Below, piece after piece: positions 5,258 through 56,171 of a stretch of 64,000 nucleotides of DNA. The notes beneath the pieces were generated by a model that ran no database searches, had not been told where the DNA came from, and was given only the letters and a program-made list of their open reading frames with translations. Source of the stretch: Spongospora subterranea f. sp. subterranea (Eukaryota); contig JAUGWO010000001.1 of the NCBI GenBank assembly GCA_049724395.1, forward strand, positions 62,001-126,000, in the 5' to 3' direction. How positions within the stretch are numbered: the first letter of the stretch is position 1; each line of letters opens with the position of its first letter. The position numbers and the translations under genes are program-made.

Positions 5258-5264
5258 TGACTCA
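5258..5264. promoter_or_regulatory. TGACTCA (AP-1/GCN4-type) site upstream of gene A
   Basis: gtTGACTCAt, 56 bp upstream of ATG 5202; recurs upstream of all ten His-rich genes. Confidence 0.65.
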
Positions 5265-6217
5265 TGGTGTATGGTGGGTATTGAACTGGCTAAAACCAGG
5301 TAGAGGCTGCGATAAGAAATCGGATGGATAAGGCATCGTGATGTCCAGCAATGAGCGTTCGCCAACAGGTTGCATATTCAGTTCGATATCGGGGTCAACT
5401 TGTATTGAGTTGTTGAATTCCTGCGTCATTATCATATTAAACGACAAATCATTGCCCCTTTGGTTAGAAGTCGTCCTGTTAGCTATTGCATTAGCAATGA
5501 CGAACGACTCGGAAGGGCATGAGTAAAAAGCAATGGAACGATTAGCAGCGTCGACATCGGTGGCATCATCCTTGATTGGTGAAGCAGAGGGTGAAAACGG
5601 TTGTTGTGAAAGAGTCACATCTAACTCGTCCACCTGTGCGATATTCCCTTGAGATTCCTGCACACCCCATTCGTGCTGTAAGTTTCGAACACAGGCGTTT
5701 GGGTTGCTATGTGCATCGTGTTTGAGATGGTTGGGCGTGGCGGCAACGATTAATCGGCTTGGATTTTCGACCGATGATATGGCCTTTGGAGTGGCTTTAA
5801 CGATCCACTGCGGTTGCGGAGCCAACTTGCGTTCTTATCCAAAAGACTTGAATAAAAATTCGAATCAAAAATGTGAAAGAACATATACCTGCCCCAATGA
5901 TTCGGCCAAGATGTTGGTCGAAACCCTTCCCATGGAACACCTTGTAATTTTCTGTTAAATTATTGTAAAACGGAATGAGTTTTGCGAACCTGCTGCCACG
6001 TTGTATCTTGATCCAAAGCCAAAGAGGATCGAGCCGTAATTGCCAGACATGCCTCGGCGTATTTCAACTTGAATGCAGATGCGTAATCGGACGAGGATCG
6101 TGTGGCACCCATATTTCTCGGCTGCTCACAGCAACTCCAAGTGCTTGGAGAATCGAAACAGGAAGAACGTTTCCTGTACAAACCACGTATACACTGTATA
6201 CTAGGGAATGCGACCAC
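5262..6217 (-). CDS. Hypothetical protein (probably 3 exons; 5' end uncertain next to the transposon)
   Basis: 187-aa terminal ORF plus upstream ORF segments separated by intron-like stretches; no family recognised. Confidence 0.4.
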
Positions 6218-6350
6218 TCGGATTTTTTTCGCGCATTTTTTTTTTTGAAAAATCCCTGAGGGTTGGCCGTAAACTACCTAGGGAATTCGAGAGACGCACA
6301 CGCACAATTCCGGAAAAAGTTTGACCGTAAACTATGGGCGGCTTGAAAAA

Positions 6351-6411
6351 GCAGGGCATATTCGCAGGGCATTTTCAAAACTTGCGCGGATGCCCTGCGA
6401 ATATGCCCTGC
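6351..6411. repeat. Perfect 22-bp inverted repeat (hairpin)
   Basis: gcagggcatattcgcagggcat (6351-6372) and atgccctgcgaatatgccctgc (6390-6411). Confidence 0.85.
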
Positions 6412-6415
6412 GAAT

Positions 6416-8810
6416 TACAGTGAGACGTTTTTTTTCAAAATGTAGCAGACCCCCGGATTTTTCCATAATAAAACCTCTCTATAAGAAGTACAAACTCTGT
6501 TAAGTACGCAAAGTACAGTGAAACCTCCATATAAGGTACAGCCCATAAAAGGTACAGTTCCATATATGGTACGTTTTTTTTTCAAAATAGCAAACCCCCG
6601 GATTTTCCATAATAAAACCTCTCTATAAAAAGTACAAACTCTGTTAAGTACGCAAAGTACACCTTGGTTGGTCACGGAGTTACCTACGCTGTTCTATATA
6701 TGGTCCATTTTTTTCTGTACACCACATTCGGATCGCCCAATAAATAGTGGAATATTGATGAACCGACGCCTGCATTAAGTCGAGCAGGGTAAGCACATTC
6801 GCGACAAAGCTTTCGAGCTTCGGATAATGCCAGCATCAAGCGGCTGTAGAACGGAGATGAGATTGGGTGGAAAAAAAACAGTCACGACACGTGGGCGCGA
6901 CCCCGTGTGCGCAGCCCCTTGCGCGGCCGCGCTCGAATTCCGCATTAGGTACACACCACTCCATAAGGTACAAAATCAATCGATTTTGGAGCAAATTGGG
7001 TGTACCTTATATGGAGGTTTCACTGTACACCCTTGGTTGGCCACGGAGTTACCTACGCTGCTCTATATATGGTCCGTTTGAATCTTTCAAAATGTCGAAC
7101 GCGGTGTCTGAAACAAAAAAACGTAAGTCGATCTGAGCACAAAGCTTGCCATCCTCAAGTACATTGACGATGGGCACAGCATCCGAGCAACAGCTGAGAA
7201 GTTCTCTCTATCCAAAGGAACTGTTGAAGCAGAGCAGGAATTCGTTGCTTCGAGCGCTCTCCAAAGCCAGAATAGTCCGGCAGAGCGACATTAACCTTTT
7301 TTATGGAGATGGTTTTCAACAGCAAAGAGCGCGTGGTTATCCGATAAGTGGTCCCATTCTGCATCAACGATTTTTTAGCCCAAAAATGGAAACAGAGGAA
7401 CAATGTGCGGTCGTACAAGGTATGTGGAGAATCGGGAAATGTAGATCTCGTTCGCGCGGAACATTGGAAAACGTCATTAGCGGCAACGATGGCAGGATAT
7501 GATCTCAAGAACGTATTAAATATGGACGAGACAGGTTTCTTCTTCCGAGCCTTACCAGACTCAACATTGAACCATGTCTCTCAATCACGTAAGGGGGGAA
7601 AGCAAGGCAAAGACAGAATAACTTTGGCTTTTACTTGCTCAGCTATGGGCGAGAAACTCCCCCTTTGGATAATTGGAAAGTCCAAAAATCCTCGCGCTTT
7701 CAGGGGTGTCGATATGAGCAAATTCAAAGCAACGTATTCAAACAGTGCAAAAGCCTGGATGACTAATCCGCTGTTCAATATTTATTTACAGGAGCTGGAC
7801 GAGATCTTTAAACGACAAGGCCCAAAGGTTCTACTCTTTTTGGATAATGCCCCTGTCCATATCGTCGACGAAGCCACAAATCTGACAAATATCGAGCTTC
7901 GCTTTTTTCCACCCAATCTCACCTCCGTTCTACAGCCGCTTGATGCTGGCATTATCCGAAACTTGAAAGCTTTGTCGCGAAAGTTCGAAGTGCTTACCCT
8001 GCTCGAATTAATGCAGGACACGTCGGTTCGTGTATCAGATCTTGCCAAAACCTCGAAGGAGACTATCCAAAAATGTTTCGCCAAATGTGGATTTGTAATC
8101 CCGACGGTTCATCACCCCAGAAGTTTTGGAGCAAGAAGAGGAACTTGCTTCTTTGGCTGAAAAGGTCGGTATTGACAGATTCCTAATTGTTGTTGAAGAA
8201 AACTTACCAGAATGCGAGATTGAAGAAGAAACAACCCTCATTGTACAGTTAGTTGATGAATTTAATAATGCTTGCAGTGATGACGAAGTGGAGGAAATTG
8301 CAAATGATATCGAAGAAACTGAACCCCAACAACCAAGAGTGATTTCAACTGTCCAGGCAAAAGAAATGCCCACGGATCTGATCGCCTTCGCAAAAGCCAA
8401 ATCGCTGTTCAAAGAGGAGATGAATTTGAAGGTGTTGAAGGCTACAATCCATTCTCTTTATCTTTCAAGTCTTAGACAGCCAGCAATTCATCAGTATTTT
8501 CAACAATTCCTCCTTTTCTGAACACCAGATTCGGATCGAACCAATGGCCGCGCCCAATGAATAGTGGAATATCGATGAACCGACGTGTCCTGCATTAAGT
8601 CGAGCAGGGTAAGCACTTCGAACTTTCGCGACAAAGCTTTCAAGCTTCGGATAATGCCAGCATCAAGCGGCTGTAGAACGGAGGTGAGATTGGGTGGAAA
8701 AAAGCGACCAGTCACGGCACGTGGGCGCGGCCCCATGTGCGCAGCCCTTGCGCGGCCTCGCATTCCGCATCAGGTAAACACCACTCCATAAGGTGCAAAA
8801 TAAATCGACT
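6416..8810 (+). mobile_element. Degenerate pogo/Tigger-type DNA transposon (CENP-B-like HTH plus DDE_1 transposase, frameshifted)
   Basis: Transposase motifs NMDETGFFFR, AWMT, LLFLDNAPVH, FFPPNLTSVLQPLDAGII in 7348-8160. Broken N-terminus from ATG 7092 and acidic C-terminal tail to 8521. Ends inferred from homology with the nested copy. Confidence 0.88.
6516..7025 (+). mobile_element. Non-autonomous ~510-bp deletion derivative of the same pogo element, nested in it
   Basis: 25-bp TIRs CAGTGAAACCTCCATATAAGGTACA (6516-6540; reverse complement at 7001-7025), TA on both sides. Interior is the 5' end plus the 3' end of the host element. Confidence 0.9.
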
Positions 8811-10102
8811 GTTCTCAGCTGCAGCTTTAGCTGTTTGATGGTTTGCTGCACAACCACCGAGGCCCCATCGCACGTTGGAGCACACTGGCCTTCCAACTCA
8901 CGACAATACCGACAATACATGCCAGATCGAATCCAGTTTGTAAAAGGGTTCCGCCTCAGTAGGCGGAATAAATAACACTAAATTTTTTGGCACTCCACAC
9001 GAAGACAGCAATGCCGCACTTGACCGATTACTTGGCGATAATTTCCACTCCGGTTTTTTGACCAACATTGTTGTTTTGAAATTCTTGAAAACCCAGGATA
9101 AAAATAGTGCAATGGCTAATCTCGGCTCGAATTTTCAACGATTTCTTTTTTCACTCAAATTACTATCGGCGAGACGGTTTCTTCAGCAGTTTGATTCTCA
9201 TCTAATGTCGCAACCGGTCTTGACTTGGGCGGAGGAAACCGATTCGTTTGCGGCTGGCGAGAACGCCACGTCATGATCAACACCTAATCGTTGCGAGAAT
9301 CATTGGGCCACCAGACGGTTAGTTCATCTCCAGCCTCAAAGAAAGCCATTTTGGCGTCAACTAGAAATGTATCGCCATTGATATGAGCTGCATGTTCAAA
9401 AGTCCAACCAGCAGAATGAAGTGGTTATATTATGCAAGGCCGTCTGGTCGCCCAAGGATTCTCACAACAGCTGTGCAAACCACCGCCCGGTCGAAAAGCA
9501 ATCGAGACCAAGTAGATAACACGATGCAACAAACACTACATCGACAGAAACCGACTGGCAACACCGACAGAAACATGCCTGGGAAAGGAGGAACGCGCCT
9601 TCCACAGTACCGAATTGATGCATCGCAATCGTGGGTCGTCGACACCAGAAAGCACAGTCGTCTAACAACAATTAATTCATGGGTCTCAGGATAAAAAGGC
9701 GTTGATTGTGTGGTCCCAGGCCCGAACATTATTCCCACTCGTGGTACCATCAGCGGAGACTCGATTGAAACGACGAACGGGGTGGATCATGCCTGTACTC
9801 GGCTAAAGGTGTGTCGAAAACAGGGATTACAGGCCTACTGGGTTGCCGGCGAACATTATGAAAACAATATGCCGAATTCGACTCTGATGTCGACGATGGC
9901 GACATGTGAAAGGCGTGACGTTCCATTATCGGGCCAGAATTTGCAACACCAACCTGTGCTTTTGTACGACTGGTTGACGGAATCAGTCAGATCAACGGCC
10001 CAGGGAACGAACACCATTCGAAAGGGCAATAAGATAGATTTATTGGTGTGTTGACATGGATGGGTTGGACCGATGGCTGAGACGTTAGTTAAAATAGACA
10101 GG

Positions 10103-10967
10103 TTAATGGTCTCCTTCCAGTAAGAACGAAATCAAGTTTCTGCAAACAAACACGTATCAGCGAAATGTCTCTTGACATCAGAAATGAGCAGAATCGATCA
10201 TGGGATGAACAACATAAACATATTTTTGGTGATTTACCCCATCGTCATGCCCATGATGGTGTCCATCGTGGCCATGTCCGAAATCGTAGCCTTCGTGGCC
10301 ATGTCCACCGCCATGACCGCCGTGTTCGCCCCCGCCATGCCCATGGATCCCCTCGTGCGCTTCCCCATGCAAATGATGATGATTATCGTGATCTGCAACT
10401 GTTCGTCAACACACACAACAGAATTTCCGACAACAAAACCCAGGAACATTTGTCTCATAACACTGCCGATTCATTTCGTGAAATGTTTTGTGTTTCTCAA
10501 CAAATGATCTCCTCACAAAAAACAAAAACAATATTGTTCGGTGAATATCAACTCATATCGCCAACAACAAACGAATCGCATTTACCATGATCGTCATGAT
10601 GGTCATCTTCGTGTTCATAAGTGTCCTCGTGAGCCAGCTCATGTGAGTCCGCTAAAGTGGCAAATGGTTGTCAGAACAATCTGACTCCTGAATTTGTGCA
10701 AAGCGATCGAGCCTTACAATGAACGTCGGACGCGGTCATGAAAGCTGTTAATGTCGCCTGCGTCACCGTATTTGATTTATCTTTGCCAGCGTGGTCAAGG
10801 TGCTCATCATCGTGATCGTGGTCCTCTTCATCGTGGTGGTCGTGGTGATCAACGTGATCGTGTTCGTGGTGGTGATCGTGATCGTCATGGTGGTCCTCGT
10901 GATCGCTGGCGTGCGTCAGTGCCAGTAATATCGACGAGCAAACTATAAAAACGATTAAACCCCTCAT
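10103..10967 (-). CDS. Secreted His/Asp/Gly-rich protein B (family 1), multi-exon; last exon uncertain
   Basis: MRGLIVFIVCSSILLALTHA|SDHEDHHDDHDHHHEH...HLDHAGKDKSNTVTQATLTAFMTASDVH, intron, SDSHELAHEDTYEHEDDHHDDH, intron, DHDNHHHLHGEAHEGIHGHGGGEHGGHGGGHGHEG... Confidence 0.85.
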
Positions 10968-11067
10968 AAAATTATTGTCGAGACCGTTGCCGGTTTGTTA
11001 TCACAATATCGAATGGCATCATTCGGTCTGGTAGATTCGAAACTACTCATCACGTTTGGACCAGAGT

Positions 11068-11074
11068 TGACTCA
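11068..11074. promoter_or_regulatory. TGACTCA site upstream of gene B
   Basis: agtTGACTCAact, 101 bp upstream of ATG 10967; a second TGACTCA at 11404-11410. Confidence 0.65.
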
Positions 11075-11571
11075 ACTTATCGCCATATTCCATGAATCAC
11101 CGTCGTCATCGCCACTTAAAAAATCCACAATCCATCCACCGTCCAGGGTTTTCACCCGTTTTATCCTCATAATTCAGACCCGAAAGTCGCAAACGTGTTT
11201 TAGTCGGGGAGGAATGTTCGAAGTCAAACATAATATCTTCCCCTAAAATCACATCAATAAACTACATAAACGACCCGCATCTCGACATAATCGGCGACGA
11301 AATTTTTGCTAGATGAGAAACGACCGTGAGACATTGCGCCATCGGATTGATTATGTGAAAAAAATGTTGTCGCAACTGTGTTTTGGGAGAGCTGAAAGTT
11401 CGATGACTCATATTTCACAATACTCCACATCGCTGGTTTCACAATGTCGAATTGAATCGAGTTCTGACCGGGATTTTTAAGTGCAAACAATTGATTGACA
11501 AGAAGCGGCGGCGGCGACGGATATAAGTTGTGTGGCGGCGAACGACCGGACTGAATGGGATGAGATCCTTT

Positions 11572-17479: not shown

Positions 17480-18439
17480 TCACGGTCTCGAAATTCTCGG
17501 GACGGATGCGGGTCGCAAGAGCGGCGGTGCCGTTCCAGCCGGGATCGGCATTGACCTGAGCCCGGCCGACGGCCTTGGCCCATCCGGGTTTGATGCCGAG
17601 CTGTACCCGTAAGGCACAGGCACATCACATTCCTCATCCTGAACAATCTCAACCGTTTGCCGTTGCTGAACGATCGCTGGAACCGGTGGGGCCGGCGTCG
17701 GCACGATGACCGGGCCGTTGGTGACGGGTGGAGCCGTTTCCTTCGATGGGCAGGCTCCAAGCGTGGCGCCCTTCTCTAGGAACTCACCCAGCGACTCAAC
17801 AGGCACCTTGATGTTGGTCAACACGTGGGGAAGGCAAATAGGAACGTGCACTGCCTTGGCGTCCGATGTGGTCGGTGCTGGTGTGGTCGGTGATGGTGTA
17901 ATCGTCGCCTTCTTCTTTGGTGCTTTAGTTGCCCTCTGAGGATTCTTGGATTTCCGAGGCGATTTCGTGTTGTTCTGAGGCAGATGGACGTCCGGAAGCG
18001 GAGTCGTGTTATTTTGGGGCAGCGGGGCGTCCGGTGGCGTTTTCGTGTCGTTGCGAATCTCGACGCTGGTCGGCGGCGCCTTTGTCAGGTTCAGAGACGT
18101 CGGAGGCGGCGAGGTTGGTGTATCAGGAGGCGGTGACGTTGTAGCCGGCGGGCAACTGCCTAATTTCCCACCTTGTTTCAAGTACGCTTCGACCAGGTCG
18201 GCTTCGACCTCGACAGTTTGCTGATCTGATGTGCACAAAGTCTGGGTGGATTTCGCCGTTGCTGGTGTCGTGCCACCGCCGCCGCCTTTCTTCACCCCCG
18301 TCCCCGGTCCGACATTATCGCCATTCCCTTGGCCGATATTGACGATGATGTCGTTCCCGTACCCTTTGTTGGATTGCGCCATCGACGCGTAACTGGCCAG
18401 GAGGACGATGCACGTCATGAGAACAGCATTTCGATCCAT
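17480..18439 (-). CDS. Secreted Pro/Thr-rich protein with two copies of a small two-Cys domain
   Basis: Signal peptide MDRNAVLMTCIVLLASYASMA. Repeats LCTSDQQTVEVEADLVEAYLKQGGKLGSCP and ICLPHVLTNIKVPVESLGEFLEKGATLGACP separated by a P/T linker. Confidence 0.8.
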   Translation of the reverse strand: MDRNAVLMTCIVLLASYASMAQSNKGYGNDIIVNIGQGNGDNVGPGTGVKKGGGGGTTPATAKSTQTLCTSDQQTVEVEADLVEAYLKQGGKLGSCPPATTSPPPDTPTSPPPTSLNLTKAPPTSVEIRNDTKTPPDAPLPQNNTTPLPDVHLPQNNTKSPRKSKNPQRATKAPKKKATITPSPTTPAPTTSDAKAVHVPICLPHVLTNIKVPVESLGEFLEKGATLGACPSKETAPPVTNGPVIVPTPAPPVPAIVQQRQTVEIVQDEECDVPVPYGYSSASNPDGPRPSAGLRSMPIPAGTAPPLLRPASVPRISRP

Positions 18440-18494
18440 CGATTAAATAAAGTGTTGGCAATGTCGAGACCCGTTAGTAAATGCAGCTAGCCGA

Positions 18495-18542
18495 TGAGTC
18501 AATCATCATGAAATTATCTACAAAACTGCCAAACTTGACTCA
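18495..18542. promoter_or_regulatory. Two TGA(C/G)TCA sites upstream of the Pro/Thr-rich secreted gene
   Basis: TGAGTCA 18495-18501 and TGACTCA 18536-18542. Confidence 0.6.
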
Positions 18543-18721: not shown

Positions 18722-19051
18722 TCAGTGATAGTAGTCATTGTATGGGAGATGGCGATCGTGATCCAATCCGCCATGGGCCATATCGACCATCTCATCGTGA
18801 CTCAAATGGTCGCGATCATGGCCATGATGATACCCGTGGTGATGATCGCCCTCGTCGTCGCCGTCGTCGTTATGATAGGGGACCGGGACGTGATCCTGGA
18901 CCGAGATCTCGACCTCGATCTCGTGCTCCTTTCCCTCCCGATGGGCCAGGTCCTCCTCGTTCCTGTGCGCGTCCCGGAAATCGTCTTCCGACGCGATCGC
19001 CACGGCCATCGCCATCGCCATCAGCACCACGATCATCACTGTTTCGTTCAT
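18722..19051 (-). CDS. Secreted His/Asp-rich protein C (singleton), intronless
   Basis: MNETVMIVVLMAMAMAVAIA|SEDDFRDAH...EHEIEVEISVQDHVPVPYH...HHHGYHHGHDRDH...YYH*; TGACTCA at 19185-19191. Confidence 0.82.
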   Translation of the reverse strand: MNETVMIVVLMAMAMAVAIASEDDFRDAHRNEEDLAHREGKEHEIEVEISVQDHVPVPYHNDDGDDEGDHHHGYHHGHDRDHLSHDEMVDMAHGGLDHDRHLPYNDYYH

Positions 19052-19688
19052 GGAGCTCCTCGTTTTGAGTTGTTTGAAATGTTGTGTGGAATGGGGCGAG
19101 TTTACCAATCTGACCCTGAACCCGACACCCACCCGGTTCCGGTTGGCTCAACATATCGGGTTCGTTCCGATAATGCTCCAACCGTGACTCATCGTTCGTG
19201 GCAGTTCGATGATCGTCCTGATCGATACTGTATTCCCTGGGCCCATCCGCCCACACGATTTCATTGTCGCCAACTCTGATAATACAGTCGACTCGACCGG
19301 GCCACTCCTCTCAACAAAACGCAATTGCAGTGCGACTTTTGTCACGATCAATCGCTCTTTCGTTGGCCAGTTTGCGGTGCCTATCTTCCTGTCGCCAACA
19401 ATATGTGTCGCCGAATAGCATCGCTCAATCCGGACCCGCTCCCTGGAATCAAAAACAGGAAATCGCCGATGTCAATGGGCCCTGCGCAGGCGGGCGTCAA
19501 CTGACCAATGGGCAATCGATTGATCAGTTGACCCCGAATATGATGATCGCGATGACAGCGAGACGAGCGGTTGACGGCTGACGGGAACCCCAATCAAATT
19601 CGGCACAGATTGGGGGACGTCTTCCCCCCCGATCGGCGACTCGGCGAATAATCCATGGCAGAAACATTCGGCGAAATCGATCGACGAG

Positions 19689-20392: not shown

Positions 20393-21124
20393 TCAATCAT
20401 CGTGATGACCGTGATGATGATCCTCTTCATCGTCCAGATAGTGGGACAGGTGCTTGAACGCCTCGTCGTGCCCCTCGACATCGTCCCGATCGAAGTCGTC
20501 GGCGATGTGGTGCTCCTGTTCGTGGTTCTCGGAATCGTGATGGATCTCGGAATGGGAGTCCTTCCCGCTGACGACGGCGTTCAGATAGGCGATCGTCTTC
20601 ACCTTCGCCGTGTCCTTCACCTTCCCTTCGAGCTCGTGCACCCCGTCGTCCTTGTGGTAATCGTCATTATCGTACAGCTCGCGATCGGTATTGTCGCGCT
20701 CGAAATGGGATTCGTGTCCGCCGTGCGTTCCCTCATCGCCGTGATGATCGCCATGATGACCACCGCCGCCGCCGCCGCCGCCGTGTTTCCTGAACCCATG
20801 GAAATGGCGCCCTGGGCCATGGTAATCCCCATCATCGCCACCGTCATCATCATCGTCACCGTCATCGTCATGATGATGGTGATTGTCGAAATGATCGTCG
20901 TCGTCGTCGAATATGCCATGGCCGCCCTCGTAGTCGTCGCCGAACCCGTCGTAGAAATCCGCGAATTCGTCGCCCTCCTCATCGAACGCATTGTGTCGTG
21001 GGTGATGATGACGCCCTCCAGCGCCATGGTTCATCATATGGTGTTGGCCGAATCGCCCCCCGTTACGAAACGCCTCAGACAATCCGATGACCAGCGCCAT
21101 CATCACGATCGCCCTCCATATCAT
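20393..21124 (-). CDS. Secreted His/Asp/Gly-rich protein D (family 1), intronless, 243 aa
   Basis: Signal peptide MIWRAIVMMALVIGLSEA; core HELEGKVKDTAKVKTIAYLNAVVSGKDSHSEIHH; TGACTCA at 21216-21222. Confidence 0.9.
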   Translation of the reverse strand: MIWRAIVMMALVIGLSEAFRNGGRFGQHHMMNHGAGGRHHHPRHNAFDEEGDEFADFYDGFGDDYEGGHGIFDDDDDHFDNHHHHDDDGDDDDDGGDDGDYHGPGRHFHGFRKHGGGGGGGGHHGDHHGDEGTHGGHESHFERDNTDRELYDNDDYHKDDGVHELEGKVKDTAKVKTIAYLNAVVSGKDSHSEIHHDSENHEQEHHIADDFDRDDVEGHDEAFKHLSHYLDDEEDHHHGHHDD

Positions 21125-21516
21125 TTGGGTGATCGATGGGCGTTATTAAATATATAAGTGACGAGATGGGTGTAAAGTGTCCGATCACGACAGATATGTG
21201 TTGATTCATTGTCAGTGACTCAACATTGTCTGGCTGACACCCTCCTTATACACCCAATCCCAATTCCATTCGTCACTATCGTATATCCGATGTTCATTTA
21301 GGTTCATTTTTGTCCCGTTCCGCATCGTCAGCGTTTTAAACCCCAGTCAATCGCCTTGATCGATATCGATGTTGTACCAGTTCATGCCGCGTCAACAAAT
21401 GTAGATTTGGGGTCAATCGCAGTGGAGAATCAATATACATACACTAGAGTGTAGTATGCCAACGGCAGTACCCCAGTCCACGTTACACGGTGGGGCCACC
21501 CAGAGAGCCCAACGAG

Positions 21517-25678: not shown

Positions 25679-26319
25679 TCACGCGTAGTGCCCGCTAGAA
25701 CATCACACAGGTCAATACACACAGATTGATCACGCTCGTCGCCTTACTGTTTGGCATCTGTAGCGCCGTCGTAGTGGTTCTCGCTAGGAAACAAAAACGG
25801 ACGTTAGTGGTTCTGTGTGTGTGTGGGATTCAATGGGGAGTTTCACGTACTGGTCACCTTCGGCGTCATCGTGGTATTCGTGCTCGGAATCTGTCGCCAA
25901 CACGGTGAATACGTCAGGTTGAATATGGGGTGAACCGGTGATGACAAACCTTCGTGATCGTCGTGCTCTTCACCGTCCTACAAACAGAGAAATCAGTGAC
26001 GGAACACAACGACGACGACGACGACGGGCGAAGAACATACGTGATGGAATCCATGGCTGTGGGCGTGACCGTGGTGGGCATGATCGTGATGGGCGTGGGC
26101 ATCGCTATGAATATCGTGACTGAACCAGACGAACGGTGATTAGATCCCCGAGATAACGACCCATGAATGGGCGGCAACAAATATCACGAACTGGTCGATA
26201 TGGCCATCACCATGGTGCACGTGCATCCTGGTGTCACCGGCGTCGACGATCATGACGAGGACGATGGCCAGACCGATCACGATCAGACAGGTACGGGGGG
26301 CGACGACACAGATCGACAT
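25679..26319 (-). CDS. Secreted His/Asp-rich protein F (family 2), 6 exons
   Basis: Spliced by eye: MSICVVAPRTCLIVIGLAIVLVMIVDA|GDTRMHVHHGDGHIDHHDIHSDAHAHHDHAHHGHAHSHGFHHDGEEHDDHEDSEHEYHDDAEGDHENHYDGATDAKHGHYA*. All five introns GT-AG with consistent phase; not shown intact in the ORF track. Confidence 0.82.
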
Positions 26320-26568
26320 CGTTTTCTTTGACGGGGGGAGAGTTCCAGAGAAGGAAAACAGACGGTCGCTGGATCTGGGTGGAAATGATTCTGAACAATC
26401 GCCCGACGACGAATCTGGTTTGGATTCGTGAATCTGCTGTTTCCGGGGCGTGATTCAACGCGGTCGCCAACGGCCCCAAGGTGAGTCAACTGGGCGTTGC
26501 TGTTCGATTGGGATCTCTGGGAAATCCCAGGGTTAATGACGGGCGTGACAGTCAGAAGTATTAATATT
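26320..26568. promoter_or_regulatory. Shared bidirectional promoter of genes F and G
   Basis: 249-bp head-to-head interval with TGAGTCA (26482-26488) and variant TGATTCA (26451-26457). Confidence 0.65.
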
Positions 26569-27234
26569 ATGTCGGGATCGGGAGCTATCGCCATCGCGCT
26601 GGTCGTAATGATGGGATTGGTGGGGGATATCGACGCCGGCGACACCAAGATGACGGTGTCCCATGGTGATGGACACATCGATCAGTAAGGACAACAACGG
26701 GCGATCGTCGCTCGTGTTGAGGGGTTTCTCGGCCGACCGTTCTGAATGGGGTTGGGCGTTTTAGTGAGGATATCGAGGGGCACGATCAGGAGGTCGATCG
26801 GGTTGAACATCATCATGGTGTTGCTCGTAGCCATGGATATCGTCGTGATCACGATCATGGTATGGGGTTCTGCTGTGTTGACGGTTCTATGGGCAAAACT
26901 CAGATCATGTGATTGTGTTGACAGATGAGGTGGAGTTATTCGATGACCAAACAGGTCTGGTGAAATACGAAGGTTTCGTGGTCAATGTTGTTCTGATCGG
27001 TTTGTGTTGTAGATGGAGAACAGTAAGTAGTCGGGCTCGGGGAATCGGCGCCACAATTGTTGATCTGGTTGGGTCAGTCACGATCACGATTACGAACACG
27101 ATGATGACGGTGATGATGATGATGACGATGATTACGAGGATGACGATGATGAGGACGATGATCATCACCACCATGATCTTCATCGTGACGATGATCATCA
27201 CCACGATGTCCACGAACTGCATGATCATATCTGA
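26569..27234 (+). CDS. Secreted His/Asp-rich protein G (family 2), 5 exons including a 10-nt micro-exon
   Basis: MSGSGAIAIALVVMMGLVGDIDA|GDTKMTVSHGDGHIDHEDIEGHDQEVDRVEHHHG...DGEHHDHDYEHDDDGDDDDDDDYEDDDDEDDDHHHHDLHRDDDHHHDVHELHDHI*. Confidence 0.82.
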
Positions 27235-27863: not shown

Positions 27864-28235
27864 TTAAAATGAGGGATGGAAGCGACGCGCTCGATCAGCT
27901 TGGAATTCGCGGAACTCTCGCAGCTCGTCTTCGTCTACGAAGGGTTCGACGTGATCGTGCGCGTGATGGGACGGGAGATCGTCGCCCGAGTGCCAGTCTA
28001 AATCCCCATTGCGATGCGGGAACTCGTGGTGCCGTTGCCAATCGCCCACGCCGAGCAGATCGTGGTGCTGGTCGTCGTGGCCCTCGCCGGGGAAATCGCG
28101 CAACGCGTACACGCCATGGTTGTCGTTGTCGACGTGTCCGTCACCATGATCGACCCAGATCAGGGTGTCACCGGCGTGTGCGATCCCGCTCAGCACGATC
28201 GTGAAGATGAACAGGGCGTCAAGCCTTCCTCGCAT
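27864..28235 (-). CDS. Secreted His/Asp-rich protein H (family 2), intronless
   Basis: MRGRLDALFIFTIVLSGIAHA|GDTLIWVDHGDGHVDNDNHG...; TGACTCA at 28413-28419. Confidence 0.85.
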   Translation of the reverse strand: MRGRLDALFIFTIVLSGIAHAGDTLIWVDHGDGHVDNDNHGVYALRDFPGEGHDDQHHDLLGVGDWQRHHEFPHRNGDLDWHSGDDLPSHHAHDHVEPFVDEDELREFREFQADRARRFHPSF

Positions 28236-28752
28236 TCAAACAGAATCAAACGTATCAACGGAAAATATGTCGGGGGGTGTTGTGGTATTCCAATAAAATA
28301 GTGTTGTGAGGCCTAGTTGAGATGGGTTAGAGTGGGAGTCAATCGCATCAATCCCACATAAATCCGAGTGACGTTGACGTCAACGATCAGAGATCTTCTT
28401 GAGATCAGGCCATGACTCAACTCTAATCGCGTTGACCGACGCAGAGAATTCCAGGAGTCAACACTTATGTGGGATTTGTCAAGACCTAAATGTGGAAAAA
28501 TCTATTGAACGGCCCACGAGGGTTTGTTTGTCGGCGACGTTCTTCAACGAAAGCAATGAAACTGATATCGCCAACATTCGAATCACACTGAGATCAAGCA
28601 GATTTCCTTTCTTGAAACAATTTATTGAATGAATCTTTTCGATGGAATGAAGATAATCTGCCAATACAAATTTCAAAAACGAAAACACAAGGTTGTTGGG
28701 CGATTTTACAGTACAATGATATCGAGTAGATGAAATATATACAAGCGGTGGC

Positions 28753-41598: not shown

Positions 41599-42207
41599 TT
41601 AATGAAGCCTGAACATGCCATCATTGGGGTGATTCCAAGCATTCCAGTCACTGAAATCGTCACGAGGTAGATCATGATGAGCGGGCACTCGTTCTGCATC
41701 GAAGTCACCATAACCGTGATGGTTTCCATGATGGTCTCCATGATGGTCTCCATGATGGTCTCCATGATGATTGTCATGAATTGGTAAGTGATGACCATCA
41801 TGCTCATGGACTCCACCAAGGTGGAACGGCTCGTGCTCGCCGTGATGCTCGTCTTCGAAGCCGCCGTGCCCATGTTCATGGCCTTCATAGCCATGGTCTG
41901 CGTGTCTGGCATGCGTGTCCGCGTCTCTATGGCGATGTTGGTCGTCGTTTTCCCCAGCGATGTCATGGCGACGAACGTGGACATGTACATCAAGGCCTTG
42001 CGATTCAGGGTCTACGTAACCATGACCATCGTGATGATCGTAATCCTCGTGGAGTCCATGGTGGCCATCATGAACGCCAAGGGGAACATCATGGTAGTTT
42101 CTTGAGTGTCCACCATGTTCGTTAAACAGCCCTTCGTGGTCGTGACCATAATCAGCATTGGCAAAAGTGGCCACCGCCAGCATGGCAATAATGAAAGCCT
42201 TATTCAT
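41599..42207 (-). CDS. Secreted His/Asp/Gly-rich protein I (singleton), intronless, 202 aa
   Basis: MNKAFIIAMLAVATFANA|DYGHDHEG...; (HHGD)n repeats; GLDVHVHVRRHD strand; TGACTCA at 42342-42348 and 42473-42479. Confidence 0.88.
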   Translation of the reverse strand: MNKAFIIAMLAVATFANADYGHDHEGLFNEHGGHSRNYHDVPLGVHDGHHGLHEDYDHHDGHGYVDPESQGLDVHVHVRRHDIAGENDDQHRHRDADTHARHADHGYEGHEHGHGGFEDEHHGEHEPFHLGGVHEHDGHHLPIHDNHHGDHHGDHHGDHHGNHHGYGDFDAERVPAHHDLPRDDFSDWNAWNHPNDGMFRLH

Positions 42208-42504
42208 TTTCCAAGACCTGCCAGAACCAGTATATAGATGTAGGATTGATAATATATTACGAGTTATGGAGGAACTTATTCGGTATGTTAAGAAGAATCC
42301 ATTGAGAGTTGATTCACGCCCTCATTGAAATCGAACCGACTTGACTCAGCGGGTGAAATTGCCTGTCTGATTTCAATACATCACATCAAGAACTTTTGGC
42401 GTTGTGAAAGGCATCATATGTCAAGCTTAGTTCATCGAGAGTTGAATCACGGCCTCTCGTTTCGCACCGGCTTGACTCAGCATTTGAACTACCCGTTTGA
42501 GGTT

Positions 42505-43443
42505 TCATACGTCACATCGACTAATTGAACGTTGTAACAGTCGGAGGTCTACGATTGCACTCGGAGGGCGCCCATCATCGGTATTATTATACATTACGTA
42601 GACGTTCTTGCCAGATCGCTTCCACTCAACAACTTGCTTCGCCAGTTTCTCCATACACTGTTCACCATAAGATCCAACATACTGGCCATTGGATCCATGT
42701 AGTCGTAGATAATAGCCCCAGTCACAACATGGCTGATAGCCTTCGAGTGTAGGGTTCCAACCGTCTTTCAAATCGCCTACCCACATCTTTACGTTTTTGA
42801 TGTGTATCGCCGCGAAGCAAAAATTACACGACCTCATCGCATCATAAATTTCTTGGCAATACCAAGACGCATGTCTGAATTCAAAGACATAGCGACCATC
42901 TCTGGGCAGAATGGCTCTGAGAGCATATAGCTTGTCAACTGAGTACGTGAGCTTGGGCGGAAGCTGAAACAAAATGGGCCCAAGATGATCACCGAGTTGT
43001 TTACAGCCTTGCTCATAGAAATAATGCCACCTTTCGGCGAAATTGTCATCGACGTTGAGTTGCCTCCAATGGGTGAAGTACTGGTTAGCTTTGACCACGT
43101 ACGTGAATGAAGGTCGCGGCGACGAATCATGGCACCATTTTTTCCAGGTTGATAGTTTCGGGATACGATAAAAAGTCGAGTTCAATTCGACGGAATCGAA
43201 CTCAGCAGAATAGAATTTGAAGAGGTCCACACCTCGAGGATAAAACACGCCCTTTTTCCAATGATCATAGCAATACCCACTGGTTCCCAAATAAAATTCC
43301 TTTTGATGACAAACTTTCCGTTTCTTCTGGAACTGTATTGGCTCTTCATCGGAACTATATGATGCTGTGACACTAATATTCTTCTTAGCCAGTGCTTTGG
43401 ACGAAACTGTAGAACCCGACATGATGGCCGCGTGCTTATGCAT
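42505..43443 (-). CDS. DUF72 (YecE-like) protein, intronless
   Basis: YLGTSGYCYDHWK...FYP, VELNSTFYRIP, VKANQYFTH, LGPILFQLPP, FEFRHASW, YYLRLHG, YVMYNN. Confidence 0.9.
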   Translation of the reverse strand: MHKHAAIMSGSTVSSKALAKKNISVTASYSSDEEPIQFQKKRKVCHQKEFYLGTSGYCYDHWKKGVFYPRGVDLFKFYSAEFDSVELNSTFYRIPKLSTWKKWCHDSSPRPSFTYVVKANQYFTHWRQLNVDDNFAERWHYFYEQGCKQLGDHLGPILFQLPPKLTYSVDKLYALRAILPRDGRYVFEFRHASWYCQEIYDAMRSCNFCFAAIHIKNVKMWVGDLKDGWNPTLEGYQPCCDWGYYLRLHGSNGQYVGSYGEQCMEKLAKQVVEWKRSGKNVYVMYNNTDDGRPPSAIVDLRLLQRSISRCDV

Positions 43444-43885: not shown

Positions 43886-44537
43886 ATGTTGACCTTCTTT
43901 GAGATACCGACACAAACAGCACGATCAGTTGAGGTGCGTCGGTTGCATTGTGGAAAGGGTGTCGTGATCAAAGGAAGCTGTGTTCGGGGCGAAGCGGGTT
44001 AGATTAAGTGGAAATAAGGTGGCTAACTTAGGTTCGTCAGTGGTCTAGAGTCAGATTTGGCTAATGCGAATCTGCTCAAAGGCTGTACGCTCGCCAAAAT
44101 ACCAATGACGAACTCTTTCCCAAAGTAGAAGAGCACGTTTCCTACACTTCATCATGCCCGCTTCGCGCAGAACCTTGGAGCCCAAGTGCCTTCCTTTGAA
44201 CACAGCATCCTTTCTACAAAAGAAGCACAAGTGGTGCTTGTCGTTAATGATTGAGCATGATGACAAAATCACAATAGAAGCAGCAGTTGTGCTCAGCGAC
44301 CAGCTCATCGAACAGCATGATAGATCAACTTGTGTGGTGCTGAGAACAGTGCGGTTATTCAATGAAAGACAATAGGGAGGGCAGATACGCTGAGGTCATG
44401 ACGGCTGACGTAGGCGACCAGACGATATTTGTGGGTACTGATCGGATATTATTCTGATCCTGATCTGAAGTAGATCATAAACTTCCGAATTGGTCGTCTC
44501 GCCGCCGCCTCGGCGTGGTTTCCCATTTTGCTAGAGC

Positions 44538-51402: not shown

Positions 51403-52364
51403 TTACTCTTCTTCTAATATTCGGGTAGTTTCTTCTGCTAGGTCAACTTTCAGCAACCGCACAGTTCCCAGTGTACGTTCTGATTAAGACAGATTATAAC
51501 GTGACGTGATCTGTCAATAACTGATAACAAATTACCGGGTAACTCGGCAGCTGTTGCCCCTTCCAGAGCGAACGCTAATTCTACAACCAGTTTCGATGCA
51601 GCGCTTTCAATGTATCCAAGAATGAATTTGGTTACTCGACTTGAGAAAACATTGACGTTAACTTCAACCTGAAATGAGGATAAAAACGACTGATTGCCAC
51701 GGAAGAGAAGATCACATACTAGGCCTGGTGCCCGGTGAAAAGCACATGTTATCTTGTTCGCAATGATAGTTGGGCGGTTTAGATTCACACCAGGAACGCT
51801 GAAATTTTCAATCCTTGGAATCAGCTTTAACCGCTGTGCGCAACTCTCATCTGTCCACCCTCCGTTCTCAGCATTTGTAAAAAACTGATTCAGCAATGCC
51901 CCAGCTTCTGTGAGTTCATTTGCTGGCCGATCCGTCTCGACGAAAGTCAAAACCAGATATCGGGGATGCATTTGAAACGTGACGACGAAAATTCGCCTTT
52001 CATCTTTACCTGATTGTGCAAATTGATCATGAGACAGAACACATAAGCAAGATTCAACTAAATCTGTACATTGTTCACGAAGATATCGTGCATATGAATC
52101 TGGCTTGGTTGACATATTATCAATTCTTTCCCCGCTTTTGCCGGAAGGAGCCAGGAGTACATCAGCATCAACGAGCTTCAACAATGGACAACCAGACTCT
52201 ATTTTGACTTTATCTTCAACGTAGGTTTTCGACCTAACATCGAAGGGCTTGGACGCCTCTGACCATGTATGCGCTTCCGCTGCTGAGCCGGTCCCACAAG
52301 GGAACATGCGCTTGGGGGCCTTCGCCGTTGGGACAAACGAAATTGGGGCATTAGCATCGCCCAT
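51403..52364 (-). CDS. EDR2 C-terminal domain (DUF1336) protein, 4 exons
   Basis: WSEASKPFDVRSKTYVEDKVKI, RLKLIPRI, LVVELAFALEGATAAELPERTLGTVRL. Confidence 0.85.
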
Positions 52365-52509
52365 GACTAAGAAGAAGAATTGATACGGCAGCCCAAAGCC
52401 TGACGAAACAGGGGTTGTGCGGCCAACAACGCCCCGATTGCACTTAGGAGAACCGATGTTAAACCGTCTCTTGTAATGTCTCAAAGGGGCACTTTACATA
52501 GGTAATCTG

Positions 52510-53277
52510 TAGATACACCGACACTTCACAATCGCACTCTGTAGATACACCACACTGCACACACACACTCGTAGGGACACACTGGTACACCGAACTGCAC
52601 ACACAACCGATGGGACACACTCAATTCATCGGTCAAACACACCAAACAATCGTGGTAGTGACAATATAGGGACACTTGGTTAGATACACCGCACAGCAAC
52701 ACACTGGTACTGTACACACTTACAGCGAACTGCACAGTGCACACGCAACCAATGGACCACACTCAATTCATCGGTCAAACACACCAAACAATCGTGGTAG
52801 GGACACTGTAGGGACACTTGGTTAGATACACCGCACAGCAACACACTGGTACTGTACACACTTACAGCGAACTGCACAGTGCACACGCAACCAATGGACC
52901 ACACTCAATTCATCGGTCAAACACACCAAACAATCGTGGTAGGGACACTGTAGGGACACTTGGTTAGATACACCGCACAGCAACACACTGGTACTGTACA
53001 CACTTACAGCGAACTGCACAGTGCACACGCAACCAATGGACCACACTCAATTCATCGGTCAAACACACCAAACAATCGTGGTAGGGACACTGTAGGAGTA
53101 GGGACACTCGGTTAGATACACCGCACAGCAACACACACACTGGTACTGTACACACTTACAGCGAACTGCACAGTGCACACGCAACCAATGGACCACACTC
53201 AATTCATCGGTCAAACACACCACACAATCGTGGTAGGAGCACAGTAGGGACACTCGGTATGTACACCGCACTGCACA
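52510..53277. repeat. 142-bp tandem repeat (CA-rich), ~5 copies
   Basis: Identical units give identical ORF translations offset by 142 bp (starts 52762, 52904, 53046). Confidence 0.92.
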
Positions 53278-54438
53278 TAACGACAGCACATATTCAGAAT
53301 GTTTTGAGTTCTCTTTAGTTGCTGTCATCGTTGGGTAGGACGGCTTCAGGACAAACAAGAATTCCTTCGAATCCTTCGTTGATTGGTGATCAAACAACGG
53401 AATAACGATAGGAATGGGTTTGCTCGTGAACTTGCTAGTTGGAGCAGTTCGGGGGATGGATTAATGTCGCTAAAGCTTCTGAAAGGAACCGAAACCTTTT
53501 AAGCTCCCGTTCTAACATTTCTGATGATTAATAAGTGCATTTTACAACAATCAGATTTTCCGAAGATACTTCTCATCTTTAGAAGATTGTGAAGACGGCG
53601 TCACCCGACCAACTCAATTCGCCAAAATTGCAATTTTTTTACGCCAAACACCTCCACTTGCCCAAGAGGTTTTAGGGCGCTTAAGACAGGAGGAGTCCAA
53701 ATTCGTTTCGAATTGTGTACTGACCTAGACGAACTGTAATCCCTTTCTGAAAACAAAGCCGCAATTGCCAGGTTCCGACAACTGGATGCCCGACAGCTCT
53801 TGTCGTGCTATTTACCCAAAAAACCGATAGAATAACAACAACGATTCGCTAAACTGATCAGCACGTTGATGAGGTTATCTGTTCAAGGAAATCGCTGACA
53901 CCTTGAACACGGCCCATTGAAACCGCCATCGCAGGAAAAATAATAAAAATCCTTAGATCAAATCCACCAACGGCTTCGCGATACAATTCATCGGATTCTC
54001 GTTGTTGAAGCCTCTCCCTAATTTGCCGTCTCGGCCTCGTCTGGCGCCCGTTGATTCTCATTCAATGCCCACTGCGATATATTACTAATCACTGATCAAT
54101 ACTTCATTTACCTTGGAAATCAGCAGAAATTTGTTGATATTCAGCTGCGATCATACGTCCTACTGGATTCCCCAATCCCTTTTCTTCTGAACAGTGCAAC
54201 GCGCGTCTACCACGATTTCTATCAGCAGCGTCAAAGCATGGCGATTTGACAAAACATATTTCTATTGTTTGTCTTGAATGGGTAGGCTCCAGGAATTCAA
54301 CAATGCAATTGCTTAAAGGGCTTTGCTGTCGGGAGTTTCCAGCGATTTGCGTATCCCGGCCGGGTCGACAACGAATCTGTTTTTCCAAAAAGAAGGGTAA
54401 TATTTTATTGTTTTTGGGTGAACATCTGAGGGGGCCGA

Positions 54439-55161
54439 TTAATGATGTGTTCCAGGGAGCCAGTTCGCCTGGTGCCCATCGTGGTCGTGATCGTGATGCA
54501 GCATCCGTTCCTCGTCGGCCATCATGCGCATCTCGCTTCCGTGCATGTGCTCGCTGCCCTGAATGGCGTGCTGATTCCCGTGCTGATCCTCCATCATGTT
54601 CCCGAACCTTCGGTACGGCGCCTGTTGGTGAAGGTCGTGATGGTGATGCCCATGGTGGTAATCGTCATCGCCGCCAAACAGACCGAAATGCCCTCCCAGG
54701 CCGTTCTCCTCGTCTTCGATTCCATCCCACTCGGACTGGTGAAGACGCCGCCCAAGATCGTGGCGCTCGTGATGATCACCATCGGCGTCGACGTCGCTGT
54801 TGACCCCACGTCGGTACCCAAGCATGGCCTCATTTCCTTGAAGATGATCGTGTTCGGCTTCGGCGTCGGTCTCGTGAGCGTTATCGTGCATGTGCGAATA
54901 CGAATCGGAGTGATGGTCCTTAGCGCCCAACGTGGCGGTGAGCTGGGCTTGCGTCTGTGTCGTCGACTTGTCCTTCCCTTTATGGTCCAGATTGCTGCCG
55001 AGATGGTCGGTGAGCTGCTCGGCGTCGTGCATATCGATATGATGATGGCCACGTACGGCTTCGGCGTCTTTATGGTTCAGCATCTGTTCTTTATGGTCGG
55101 CGTGGGCCAGGCCGATCGCCAGGGCGATGGACAGGGCCAGCACTATTGTACGGGGAATCAT
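54439..55161 (-). CDS. Secreted His-rich protein J (family 1), intronless, 240 aa
   Basis: MIPRTIVLALSIALAIGLAHA|DHKEQ...; core NLDHKGKDKSTTQTQAQLTATLGAKDHHSDSYSHMHDNAHE; TATA-like tatataaa near 55243; TGACTCA 55301-55307. Confidence 0.9.
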   Translation of the reverse strand: MIPRTIVLALSIALAIGLAHADHKEQMLNHKDAEAVRGHHHIDMHDAEQLTDHLGSNLDHKGKDKSTTQTQAQLTATLGAKDHHSDSYSHMHDNAHETDAEAEHDHLQGNEAMLGYRRGVNSDVDADGDHHERHDLGRRLHQSEWDGIEDEENGLGGHFGLFGGDDDYHHGHHHHDLHQQAPYRRFGNMMEDQHGNQHAIQGSEHMHGSEMRMMADEERMLHHDHDHDGHQANWLPGTHH

Positions 55162-56171
55162 GATCGGGTTTCAGAGGAGGTGGTTTCAAAAACGCCAGAA
55201 ATCGCACCAGCAAATAATACGCTTTTGATATTGATTCGATAATATATAAAATGAGATAAGGACGGGGATCAGGTCTCAGCTGGCAAAGGAAATCAGAACG
55301 TGACTCACACTCCGATCGCCCCGGGTGAATCACCACAGCTCTTTGCTCACAAGGGGGGCCAGTCCCTCCCAAGGGCCAGGGGTTCATCCAATCGGGGCCC
55401 TCCGTGTTTTGAGACATCACGCGTTGGCCAATCGGAAGCGGGACCTGACCTTAACCCCCATCCTTATCGGCGAGTTGACCAGGCGAGGCAGATCGTTAAT
55501 GAGGATAGGGCCGAACGTTTACATCCCCAGATTCAGTGATCGTTTTGCGTTGTCCATTGGCACTTGCGATTCCGTTGCCCAGCCAAAGTAATATGTTTGG
55601 TTAGCTGGCTGCGTATCGACATCGCCGTTCACGAAGCAAGGAGACGCAACAGCGCTTCGTAAAATTGCTATCAGCGTTTCAACGCCTCACAAGTTTCATT
55701 GGCATTTCGTCAAAATGAACTTGATTCTGGTTTTGTGCCACAATGATTTTCCCGGCGACGCTGATCGCTTCGGGTACTCAATAAAACACTGTTAACTGGC
55801 CAATATCATCGATCGTTGAATTTTCAAACACAGCGTGAATAGGAATTATTTGTTCGCGTTAATCGTTTGTTTGTATTGTTCGTTTCGTGGTATTTGACCA
55901 ATTCCGCAACCTATCGTGTTGATGTGCTCGGCGCCGTCCTGAGATGGTCCCAATCCGCCAAGATTGCTGACAGATATCATCCAGCGATGGTCCGGAATCT
56001 GATTTGGGACCGTTGGCGATCATGACCAAACGTCAGTTGCGTCAATGTCCCAAAGCGGAATGGGAAGATGAGTCATCGTCAAACTAACAACGCGTTGCCA
56101 TTTCCGGGATCTTCTGGATCGGATCGGCCATTGTTGATATTGGGATTTTTGCTGGGCAACGTTTGGCGAAC

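What the first reader, a model, noticed from the sequence alone, without database searches (positions are those of the whole stretch)
5258..56075. Shared AP-1/GCN4-type TGA(C/G)TCA element upstream of every His-rich gene
Seen: exact TGA(C/G)TCA at 5258 (A, -56), 11068 (B, -101), 19185 (C, -134), 21216 (D, -92), 26482 (G -81, F -163), 28413 (H, -178), 42342 and 42473 (I, -135 and -266), 55301 (J, -140) and 56069 (K, -97). TGA(A/T)TCA variants lie nearby (11093, 21202, 26451, 42310, 42443, 55326). By eye I found only a few other copies: 11404, 18495/18536, 18798 and 39281 (both within CDS), and 63829. I found none close upstream of NOT1, allantoinase, Mis18, SEL1L, TPK, ZIP or the RME-8-like gene. 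Under uniform base composition the chance per 200 bp is about 2-3%, so hits in all nine independent promoters are very unlikely by chance. The motif spans non-homologous families, so shared ancestry does not explain it. Known: TGA(C/G)TCA is the bZIP AP-1/Gcn4 site. Inference: one bZIP factor controls the set as a regulon.
Basis: partly seen in the sequence, partly recalled or inferred. Interest (0 to 1): 0.88.

Follow-up and report, generated by a model that had tools for sequence, protein, structure and literature searches.

The report
Shared promoter switch for secreted genes
All ten histidine-rich secreted-type genes in this stretch of a clubroot-relative plant parasite, plus one mucin-like gene, carry the same seven-letter DNA word just upstream, nearly always facing the same way, which likely lets an AP-1/Gcn4-type regulator switch them on together, probably while the parasite grows and forms spores inside its host.

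Summary
Observation confirmed and sharpened. TGA(C/G)TCA lies 62-184 nt upstream of 10 of 10 His-rich signal-peptide genes and 0 of 16 control starts; no best-of-all 7-mer reached 9/9 promoters in 3000 random draws. New here: the proximal site reads TGAGTCA on the sense strand in 9 of 9 one-way promoters; promoter copies share a symmetric flank ([AC][CG]N on each half-site, 23/36 vs 6/34 elsewhere); 9 of 11 sites or site groups have a companion site 14-41 bp away. The genes are about five lineages, not nine independent ones, but the promoter flanks are unalignable (26% identity), so the word is kept by selection. The organism is a plasmodiophorid, probably Spongospora-like; the J family is conserved in P. 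brassicae. Best reading: a bZIP dimer drives an in-host, likely sporulation-linked battery of disordered secreted proteins. Binding, the factor, co-expression and conservation in other species were not testable here. A known kind of element in a lineage where my searches found no described promoter motif.

The parts
5258..5264 (-). TGAGTCA site of gene A (5' base -62); its TGA is also the stop of the open frame 5262-5834 (-)
5225..5232 (-). CRE-like companion TTACGTCA, 33 bp from A's site
4624..5202 (-). Gene A, His-rich, signal peptide, family 1, several exons (3' end approximate)
11068..11074 (-). TGAGTCA site of gene B (-107)
11093..11099 (-). Companion TGATTCA of B, 25 bp upstream
10100..10967 (-). 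Gene B, His-rich, family 1, spliced (3' end approximate)
   Evidence: (joints)
18536..18542 (-). TGAGTCA site of PT1 (-103)
18495..18501 (-). Second PT1 site, TGACTCA on the sense strand (-62)
17480..18439 (-). PT1, Pro/Thr-rich mucin-like signal-peptide gene, 1% His; added to the set here
19185..19191 (-). TGAGTCA site of gene C (-140)
18722..19051 (-). Gene C, His-rich singleton
21216..21222 (-). TGAGTCA site of gene D (-98)
21202..21208 (-). Companion TGAATCA of D, 14 bp downstream
20393..21124 (-). Gene D, His-rich, family 1 (linked through A and J by BLAST)
26482..26488 (+). Site in the divergent F/G promoter: TGAGTCA at -87 of G, reversed at -169 of F
26451..26457 (+). Companion TGATTCA, 31 bp from the F/G site
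25993..26319 (-). Gene F, His-rich, family 2 (3' end approximate)
26569..27234 (+). Gene G, His/Asp-rich, family 2, spliced
   Evidence: (joints)
28413..28419 (-). TGAGTCA site of gene H (-184)
28372..28385 (.). 14-bp palindrome holding the only TGACGTCA (CRE-type) of the window, 38 bp from H's site
27864..28235 (-). Gene H, His-rich, family 2
42342..42348 (-). Proximal TGAGTCA of gene I (-141), companion TGAATCA at 42310
42473..42479 (-). Distal TGAGTCA of gene I (-272), companion TGATTCA at 42443; just past the DUF72 stop
41599..42207 (-). Gene I, His-rich singleton
55301..55307 (-). TGAGTCA site of gene J (-146), companion TGATTCA at 55326
55249..55254 (-). Initiator-like TCATTT 53 nt downstream of J's site (likely transcription start region)
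   Evidence: contig ends at 55257 and 55261, (one sample, very weak)
54439..55161 (-). Gene J, His-rich, family 1; relative of P. brassicae PBTT_08748 (45% identity in alignment A2)
56069..56075 (+). TGAGTCA site of gene K (-103)
56172..56812 (+). Gene K, His-rich, family 1, two exons

Best explanation
TGAGTCA is a shared, directional promoter word in front of eleven secreted-type genes, and it is likely the binding site of a dimeric bZIP (AP-1/Gcn4-type) activator that would switch them on together during growth and sporulation inside the host. Shown: the word, its position (62-184 nt before the start codon), its sense-strand orientation, a two-fold symmetric flank preference of about 13 bp, and weaker companion sites 14-41 bp away. 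Inferred: a bZIP dimer grips the two TGA half-sites and their flanks, a second dimer on the companion site adds cooperativity, and the complex recruits polymerase to an initiator about 50-60 nt downstream; the fixed orientation would come from a heterodimer or from an asymmetric contact with the initiation machinery. Inferred with less support: the products (disordered, His/Asp-rich, metal-binding-type proteins and a mucin-like protein) form wall or matrix material of the resting-spore stage.
For: Enrichment 10/10 vs 0/16 controls, three of which have signal-peptide-like starts (E, SEL1L, ZIP), so it is not a general secretory mark; beats best-of-all-7-mer nulls; survives collapse to 5 lineages (rough corrected chance 2e-4). 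Flanks unalignable, mean 26% identity around the anchored site, and no 15-mer context repeats in the window. Half-sites with M at -3 and S at -2: 23/36 in promoters vs 6/34 elsewhere, Fisher p 1e-4; S at -2 alone 31/36 vs 11/34, p 6e-6 (post hoc). All 6 of 19 TGA(A/T)TCA that lie within 45 bp of a core site are the promoter ones, p 2e-6; the only TGACGTCA of the window sits beside H's site - AP-1 plus CRE sites together is what bZIPs read (recalled). Initiator-like YCABTY 48-61 nt downstream in 5 of 10 promoters vs 6.5% background (post hoc). Fos binds TGA(C/G)TCA (PMC3578760, passages); an oomycete bZIP, PITG_04908, binds TGACTCA on protein-binding microarrays (PMC11267843, passages). S. subterranea expresses a transcript annotated as bZIP-domain protein in planta (PMC8471823 supplement row). 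Two S. subterranea relatives of family 1 are very abundant in infected roots (base mean 6371 and 3009; 47 of the 52 rows seen around the first are 283 or lower) and shift alike between cultivars (log2FC +2.03, +1.84), as does a NodB chitin-deacetylase-type transcript; in spores the first is middling and unchanged (base mean 849, log2FC 0.07). J folds as disordered (pLDDT 49), as reported for PBTT_08748.
Against: No binding data, no candidate factor sequence, no genome-wide background (no genome held). Only one window and about five lineages; the flank, companion and initiator patterns were found after the fact on the same sites. Orientation 9/9 (p 0.004; 10/11 sites, p 0.012; 5/5 by lineage, p 0.06) is not expected from a plain homodimer site. 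C and K have no TGA(N)TCA or CRE companion. Four copies lie outside these promoters (11404, 18798, 39281, 63829). The published expression values are for relatives whose promoters I did not see and that are not shown to be these genes; a second transcript under the same accession has base mean 24, and 837 of 1151 changed genes moved in the same direction, so the parallel shift is weak. The sporulation and wall role is not shown by any search.
Confidence: 0.6

Rival explanations
1. Same bZIP element, but the input is metal, oxidative or amino-acid stress rather than the developmental clock; the His-rich products chelate Zn/Cu or store histidine.
For: C. elegans FOS-1 controls the polyhistidine gene kreg-1 through a TGAGTCA site in the copper response (PMC3578760, passages). 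Plasmodiophorids lack histidine biosynthesis genes (PMC4471660, passage), so His supply from the host could gate these genes. A ZIP zinc transporter lies directly downstream of gene I.
Against: The ZIP gene has no site; His-poor PT1 has two; family-1 relatives are abundant in ordinary infected roots.
Confidence: 0.2
2. The word is read directionally by a non-bZIP factor, or is a fixed-position proximal promoter element acting with the initiator.
For: Sense-strand TGAGTCA in 9 of 9 one-way promoters; 48-61 nt spacing to an initiator-like sequence in 5 of 10. About half of non-palindromic Phytophthora stage motifs show orientation bias (PMC3597505, passages).
Against: Two-fold symmetric flanks, tolerance of the central base in companions and a CRE-type palindrome all point to a dimer reading TGA half-sites; one site serves the divergent F/G pair and PT1 has a reversed copy.
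Confidence: 0.1
3. Relic of promoter duplication: the genes descend from few ancestors and inherited the word and its orientation, with no shared control today.
For: Five genes are one family and three another; inheritance would explain the fixed orientation.
Against: Flanks are at random identity even between paralogues (best pair 35%, mean 26%; none of 45 masked local alignments scored above 24 in the ten best listed) while the 7-mer is perfect; PT1, C and I show no real protein similarity to either family.
Confidence: 0.06
4. An RNA-level element in the 5' UTR, which would explain the strand bias.
For: Strict sense orientation; one contig of B and read-through contigs of I run through the site.
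Against: Symmetric flanks and palindromic companions; J contigs end about 40 nt downstream of the site (one sample); initiator-like sequences lie downstream of the site.
Confidence: 0.03
5. Chance coincidence picked out after the fact.
For: Total count of 16 is not far above expectation; the motif was chosen after looking.
Against: 0 of 3000 best-of-all-words draws reach 9/9.
Confidence: 0.01

Closest known systems
AP-1 / TRE site bound by Fos-Jun family bZIPs, and the yeast Gcn4 site
   Same: Identical core TGA(C/G)TCA (PMC3578760); promoter-proximal; CRE-type site alongside.
   Different: Fixed sense orientation and an [AC][CG]N flank; targets are secreted disordered proteins, not amino-acid biosynthesis enzymes (Gcn4 targets recalled); host lineage is Rhizaria; factor unknown.
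C. elegans KGB-1 / FOS-1 control of kreg-1
   Same: TGAGTCA site upstream of a polyhistidine protein gene.
   Different: There a single stress gene is repressed until copper stress; here a multi-family battery including a His-poor mucin-like gene, with sign of regulation unknown.
Phytophthora infestans stage-specific promoter motifs and bZIP PITG_04908
   Same: Short motifs with position and orientation bias mark spore and infection stage genes; a bZIP of the same SAR supergroup binds TGACTCA.
   Different: Those were found genome-wide with expression data and reporter tests; none of that exists for this case.
Plasmodiophorid secretome cluster PBTT_08748 / A0A0H5RWI1 / two Polymyxa betae proteins
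   Same: J and K align with PBTT_08748 over the conserved G-D-S-T...A-L-A...A-D-H-D-SY-S core; predicted secreted and disordered (PMC12503489 supplement rows).
   Different: Listed there only as an uncharacterised sequence cluster; the main text has no promoter analysis (0 hits for 'promoter').

Membership tests
AP-1/Gcn4-type bZIP element | Core sequence TGA(C/G)TCA | tested here: met
   12 exact copies in 11 genes' promoters; only the 7-mer is invariant, best 8-mer 4 of 9
AP-1/Gcn4-type bZIP element | Over-represented in the promoters of a definable gene set | tested here: met
   10/10 vs 0/16; nulls (one window only)
AP-1/Gcn4-type bZIP element | Two-fold symmetry of recognition, as for a dimer | tested here: met
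   Same flank preference on both half-sites, (post hoc)
AP-1/Gcn4-type bZIP element | Lies upstream of the transcription start | tested here: inconclusive
   J contig ends and initiator-like sequences fit; contigs cannot fix a start
AP-1/Gcn4-type bZIP element | Works in either orientation (usual for such sites, recalled; not strictly defining) | tested here: inconclusive
   Occurrence is biased 9/9, but p 0.06 by lineage; function in reverse untested
AP-1/Gcn4-type bZIP element | Bound by a bZIP protein of this organism | not testable with these tools
   A bZIP-domain transcript exists in S. subterranea; its basic region and specificity were not seen
AP-1/Gcn4-type bZIP element | Needed for expression; targets co-expressed | not testable with these tools
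   Only contig-level RNA was available, which cannot rank genes
AP-1/Gcn4-type bZIP element | Conserved upstream of orthologues | tested here: inconclusive
   Two metagenome scans returned no locus; an unchecked AI note reports it in a clubroot genome
Gcn4 general amino-acid control regulon | Targets are amino-acid biosynthesis genes (recalled) | tested here: not met
   Targets in the window are signal-peptide, low-complexity genes with no Pfam match (8 of the 11 scanned)
Maf MARE / Nrf2 ARE | GC(A) flank after TGACTCA (consensus recalled) | tested here: not met
   Only the two gene I sites of 12 read TGACTCAGC

The most novel reading that the evidence does not exclude
A plasmodiophorid-wide master switch: a directional bZIP (likely heterodimeric) element that turns on a conserved battery of secreted His-rich and mucin-like proteins building the long-lived resting spore, in parasites that cannot make histidine - the Gcn4 word wired to histidine sinks instead of histidine synthesis, so that spore building is gated by the host's amino-acid supply. 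The word would let the whole regulon be read from genome sequence alone in an untransformable lineage.
Probability: 0.25. Interest if true: 0.78.

Novelty: new member of a known kind. Interest (0 to 1): 0.52.

Why it matters
Plasmodiophorids (clubroot, powdery scab, Polymyxa virus vectors) are obligate intracellular parasites with little genetic access, and my searches found no described promoter motif or regulon for them (term look-ups). A sequence-defined element gives a testable handle: scan genomes for the regulon, find the factor by DAP-seq or one-hybrid, and separate likely structural spore proteins from true effectors in secretome lists. The element type itself is textbook, which caps the surprise; the fixed orientation and the histidine-auxotroph context are the unusual parts.

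Tried and rejected
No whole genome is held, so there is no genome-wide background. Cross-species footprinting failed: two metagenome scans with family-1 alignments confirmed 0 of 69 and 0 of 107 pattern matches. Word-indexed search with J residues 1-115 found nothing; ESM Atlas gave no usable hit for J and was unreachable for H. Six window proteins are not in the exact-sequence collection. The family-1 profile built from outside relatives found J, K, B strongly and A weakly (E 0.0065) but not D; D is tied in by BLAST only. RNA: no listed run is on record as RNA, though the laid contigs are spliced. Contig depth cannot rank genes, so the following is not counted as evidence either way: in X5/X11 (near-identical figures, probably one data set) and X8 the deep contigs fall on B, PT1, C/D, G, H, I and J while neighbours are shallow, and in X1/X4 the picture is largely reversed, with no cover on PT1 and almost none on F and G in X1; against a simple regulon, K is shallow in all 4 runs laid and F is shallow in X5/X11, B has a deep contig in X1, and I is covered in X1/X4 by contigs running on from DUF72. 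AlphaFold of J gave no fold (pTM 0.15), so no fold search was run. A transposon or repeat origin of the word was rejected: every 15-base context is unique. Earlier-findings look-ups by place and sequence were empty. Supplement file 13 of PMC12503489 was not searched, the PMC8471823 supplement is cut, and bioRxiv supplements are closed; they may hold stage expression of PBTT_08748 or further bZIP entries.
Full report
Observation. A six-frame scan for His-dense frames recovers the ten genes A-D and F-K without reference to the motif; all begin with a hydrophobic signal-peptide-like stretch. Each has the site 62-184 nt upstream of its ATG (F and G share one in a divergent promoter), and none of 16 approximate control starts has it within 250 nt. 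Three of the controls (E, SEL1L, ZIP) also start with a signal-peptide-like stretch, so the word does not simply mark the secretory pathway. Chance is 2.0-3.3% per 200 bp; allowing for choosing the best word afterwards, no 7-mer was shared by all nine in 3000 draws of random windows (8 of 9 once) or 3000 shuffles (max 6). The total count is only modestly above the 6.6-11.2 expected, so the signal is where the copies sit.

First, 18495 and 18536 are the promoter of PT1, a Pro/Thr-rich signal-peptide gene with 1% His, so 12 of 16 copies lie in front of eleven secreted-type genes and the set is wider than 'His-rich'. Second, the genes are not nine unrelated ones: A, B, D, J, K share a conserved core and F, G, H share an AGDT...HGDGH(I/V)D start; C, I and PT1 stand alone. 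That leaves about five lineages; a rough corrected chance is still 2e-4. Shared ancestry does not explain the word, because the DNA around it is at random identity (mean 26%, best pair 35%). Third, A's TGA doubles as the stop of a 190-codon open frame and I's distal pair lies just behind the DUF72 stop; compact spacing with overlapping UTRs is described for P. brassicae (PMC4815078, passages).

Anatomy not seen before. (a) Orientation: the proximal site reads TGAGTCA on the sense strand in 9 of 9 one-way promoters (p 0.004), 10 of 11 sites in them (p 0.012), 5 of 5 lineages (p 0.06). (b) Flanks: read outward from each TGA half-site, promoter copies prefer A/C at -3 and C/G at -2 on both sides (17/24 core, 6/12 variant half-sites) while copies elsewhere do not (2/8, 4/26); Fisher p 1e-4. 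(c) Companions: the 6 of 19 TGA(A/T)TCA within 45 bp of a core site are all in these promoters (p 2e-6); the single TGACGTCA of the window lies in a 14-bp palindrome 38 bp from H's site and a TTACGTCA 33 bp from A's. Spacings are 14-41 bp; C and K have no such companion. (d) An initiator-like YCABTY lies 48-61 nt downstream in 5 of 10 promoters against 6.5% background, and J contigs from one sample end 5' at 55257 and 55261, between the site and that sequence (below the tool's bar for even a weak hint). Patterns b-d were found after the fact on few sites.

Organism and targets. The ZIP transporter's best named hit is P. brassicae at 61%, so this is a plasmodiophorid other than P. brassicae; 47.1% GC is near the 45.7% reported for Spongospora subterranea (PMC12883290, passage). 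The species is inferred, not shown. A profile of family 1 finds 8 proteins among 1.84 billion, among them P. brassicae PBTT_08748 and an S. subterranea protein; one, P0074, is a 2389-residue repeat protein that I dropped as spurious. PBTT_08748 is in a published secretome as disordered and clusters with S. subterranea A0A0H5RWI1 and two P. betae proteins (PMC12503489, supplement rows). J likewise has no predicted fold. In published S. subterranea tables the two family relatives are very abundant in infected roots (base mean 6371 and 3009, log2FC +2.03 and +1.84; 5 of the 52 rows seen exceed 1000 and all five shift +1.6 to +2.3, one being a NodB-domain transcript) (PMC8471823 supplement), whereas in spores A0A0H5RWI1 is middling and unchanged on germination (PMC8256667 supplement). 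These genes' promoters were not seen, a second transcript under the same accession is low (24), and most changed genes moved the same way (837 of 1151), so this supports in-host expression of the family more than co-regulation. Spliced contigs confirm B and G as transcribed genes.

Mechanism. The symmetric 13-bp preference, the tolerated central base and the CRE-type neighbour are what a bZIP dimer reading two TGA half-sites leaves behind. Fos binds this core (PMC3578760, passages), an oomycete bZIP binds TGACTCA (PMC11267843, passages), and S. subterranea expresses a bZIP-domain transcript. I therefore infer a bZIP activator, helped by a second dimer on the companion site, acting about 50-60 nt ahead of an initiator; the fixed orientation suggests a heterodimer or a one-sided contact. 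The trigger is most likely developmental, with the products serving as wall or matrix material of the spore stage (0.6); a metal or amino-acid stress input is the main rival (0.2), given the kreg-1 precedent and the loss of histidine biosynthesis in plasmodiophorids (PMC4471660, passage). Binding, factor identity, co-expression and conservation were not shown. Contig-level RNA could not rank genes; what it showed, including the awkward cases K and F, is under Tried and rejected.

Comparison and novelty. It works like an AP-1/Gcn4 site and meets the sequence-level features; it is not the Gcn4 amino-acid regulon nor a MARE/ARE. Ten library searches (listings only) and term look-ups in plasmodiophorid papers (passages only) showed no promoter motif or His-rich regulon described for this group; subscription papers were not searched, and I recall one older paper on initiator-type P. 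brassicae promoters that I did not see. An earlier AI note on another genome, which it calls the clubroot parasite, reports the same word before most His-rich secreted genes and many other secreted and membrane genes (e1-9967885); I could not check it and do not count it as support, but if right it would supply the missing conservation and widen the regulon. Verdict: real element, new member of a known kind, interest 0.52.

Noticed in passing
window 10000-11505 (-): In run X1 a contig of gene B reaches 11505, through the promoter site; its record coordinates imply a further joint from about 11005 to 10942 with GT..AG ends that would skip B's start codon, i.e. a possible upstream-started non-secreted isoform (the joint row itself was not displayed). 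The copy at 11404 lies in this upstream stretch.
   Followed up: partly
window 5262-5834 (-): A 190-codon open frame of unknown identity ends with its stop inside A's site.
   Followed up: no
window 42505-43443 (-): Intronless DUF72 gene whose best hits are liverwort (Riccia) proteins at 56-57%, with no named plasmodiophorid hit among 16: patchy distribution, possible horizontal transfer.
   Followed up: no
window 39700-42207 (-): ZIP zinc transporter directly downstream of His-rich gene I on the same strand; one contig bridges them.
   Followed up: no
window 23196-23990 (+): Gene E: signal-peptide, Pro/Thr-rich gene with Cys-rich modules and PNVTIA repeats, without the site; a useful negative control.
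   Followed up: partly
window 44051-44800 (-) and 51450-52364 (-): Spliced minus-strand transcripts overlap or abut the long plus-strand RME-8-like gene at both ends (joints).
   Followed up: no
window 20134, 22346, 22889, 47045, 48688: Single-letter indels between window and contigs recur in several runs, probably assembly slips.
   Followed up: no
window 6300-8900, 58900-63100: Transposon remnants: DDE_1 transposase frame, rva_4 integrase-like frame and retroelement pieces; the copy at 63829 lies beyond them with no gene seen before the window end.
   Followed up: no
window 25140-25270 and 52500-53300: Short tandem arrays (a 30-bp unit near 25150; longer units upstream of the EDR2_C gene).
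   Followed up: no
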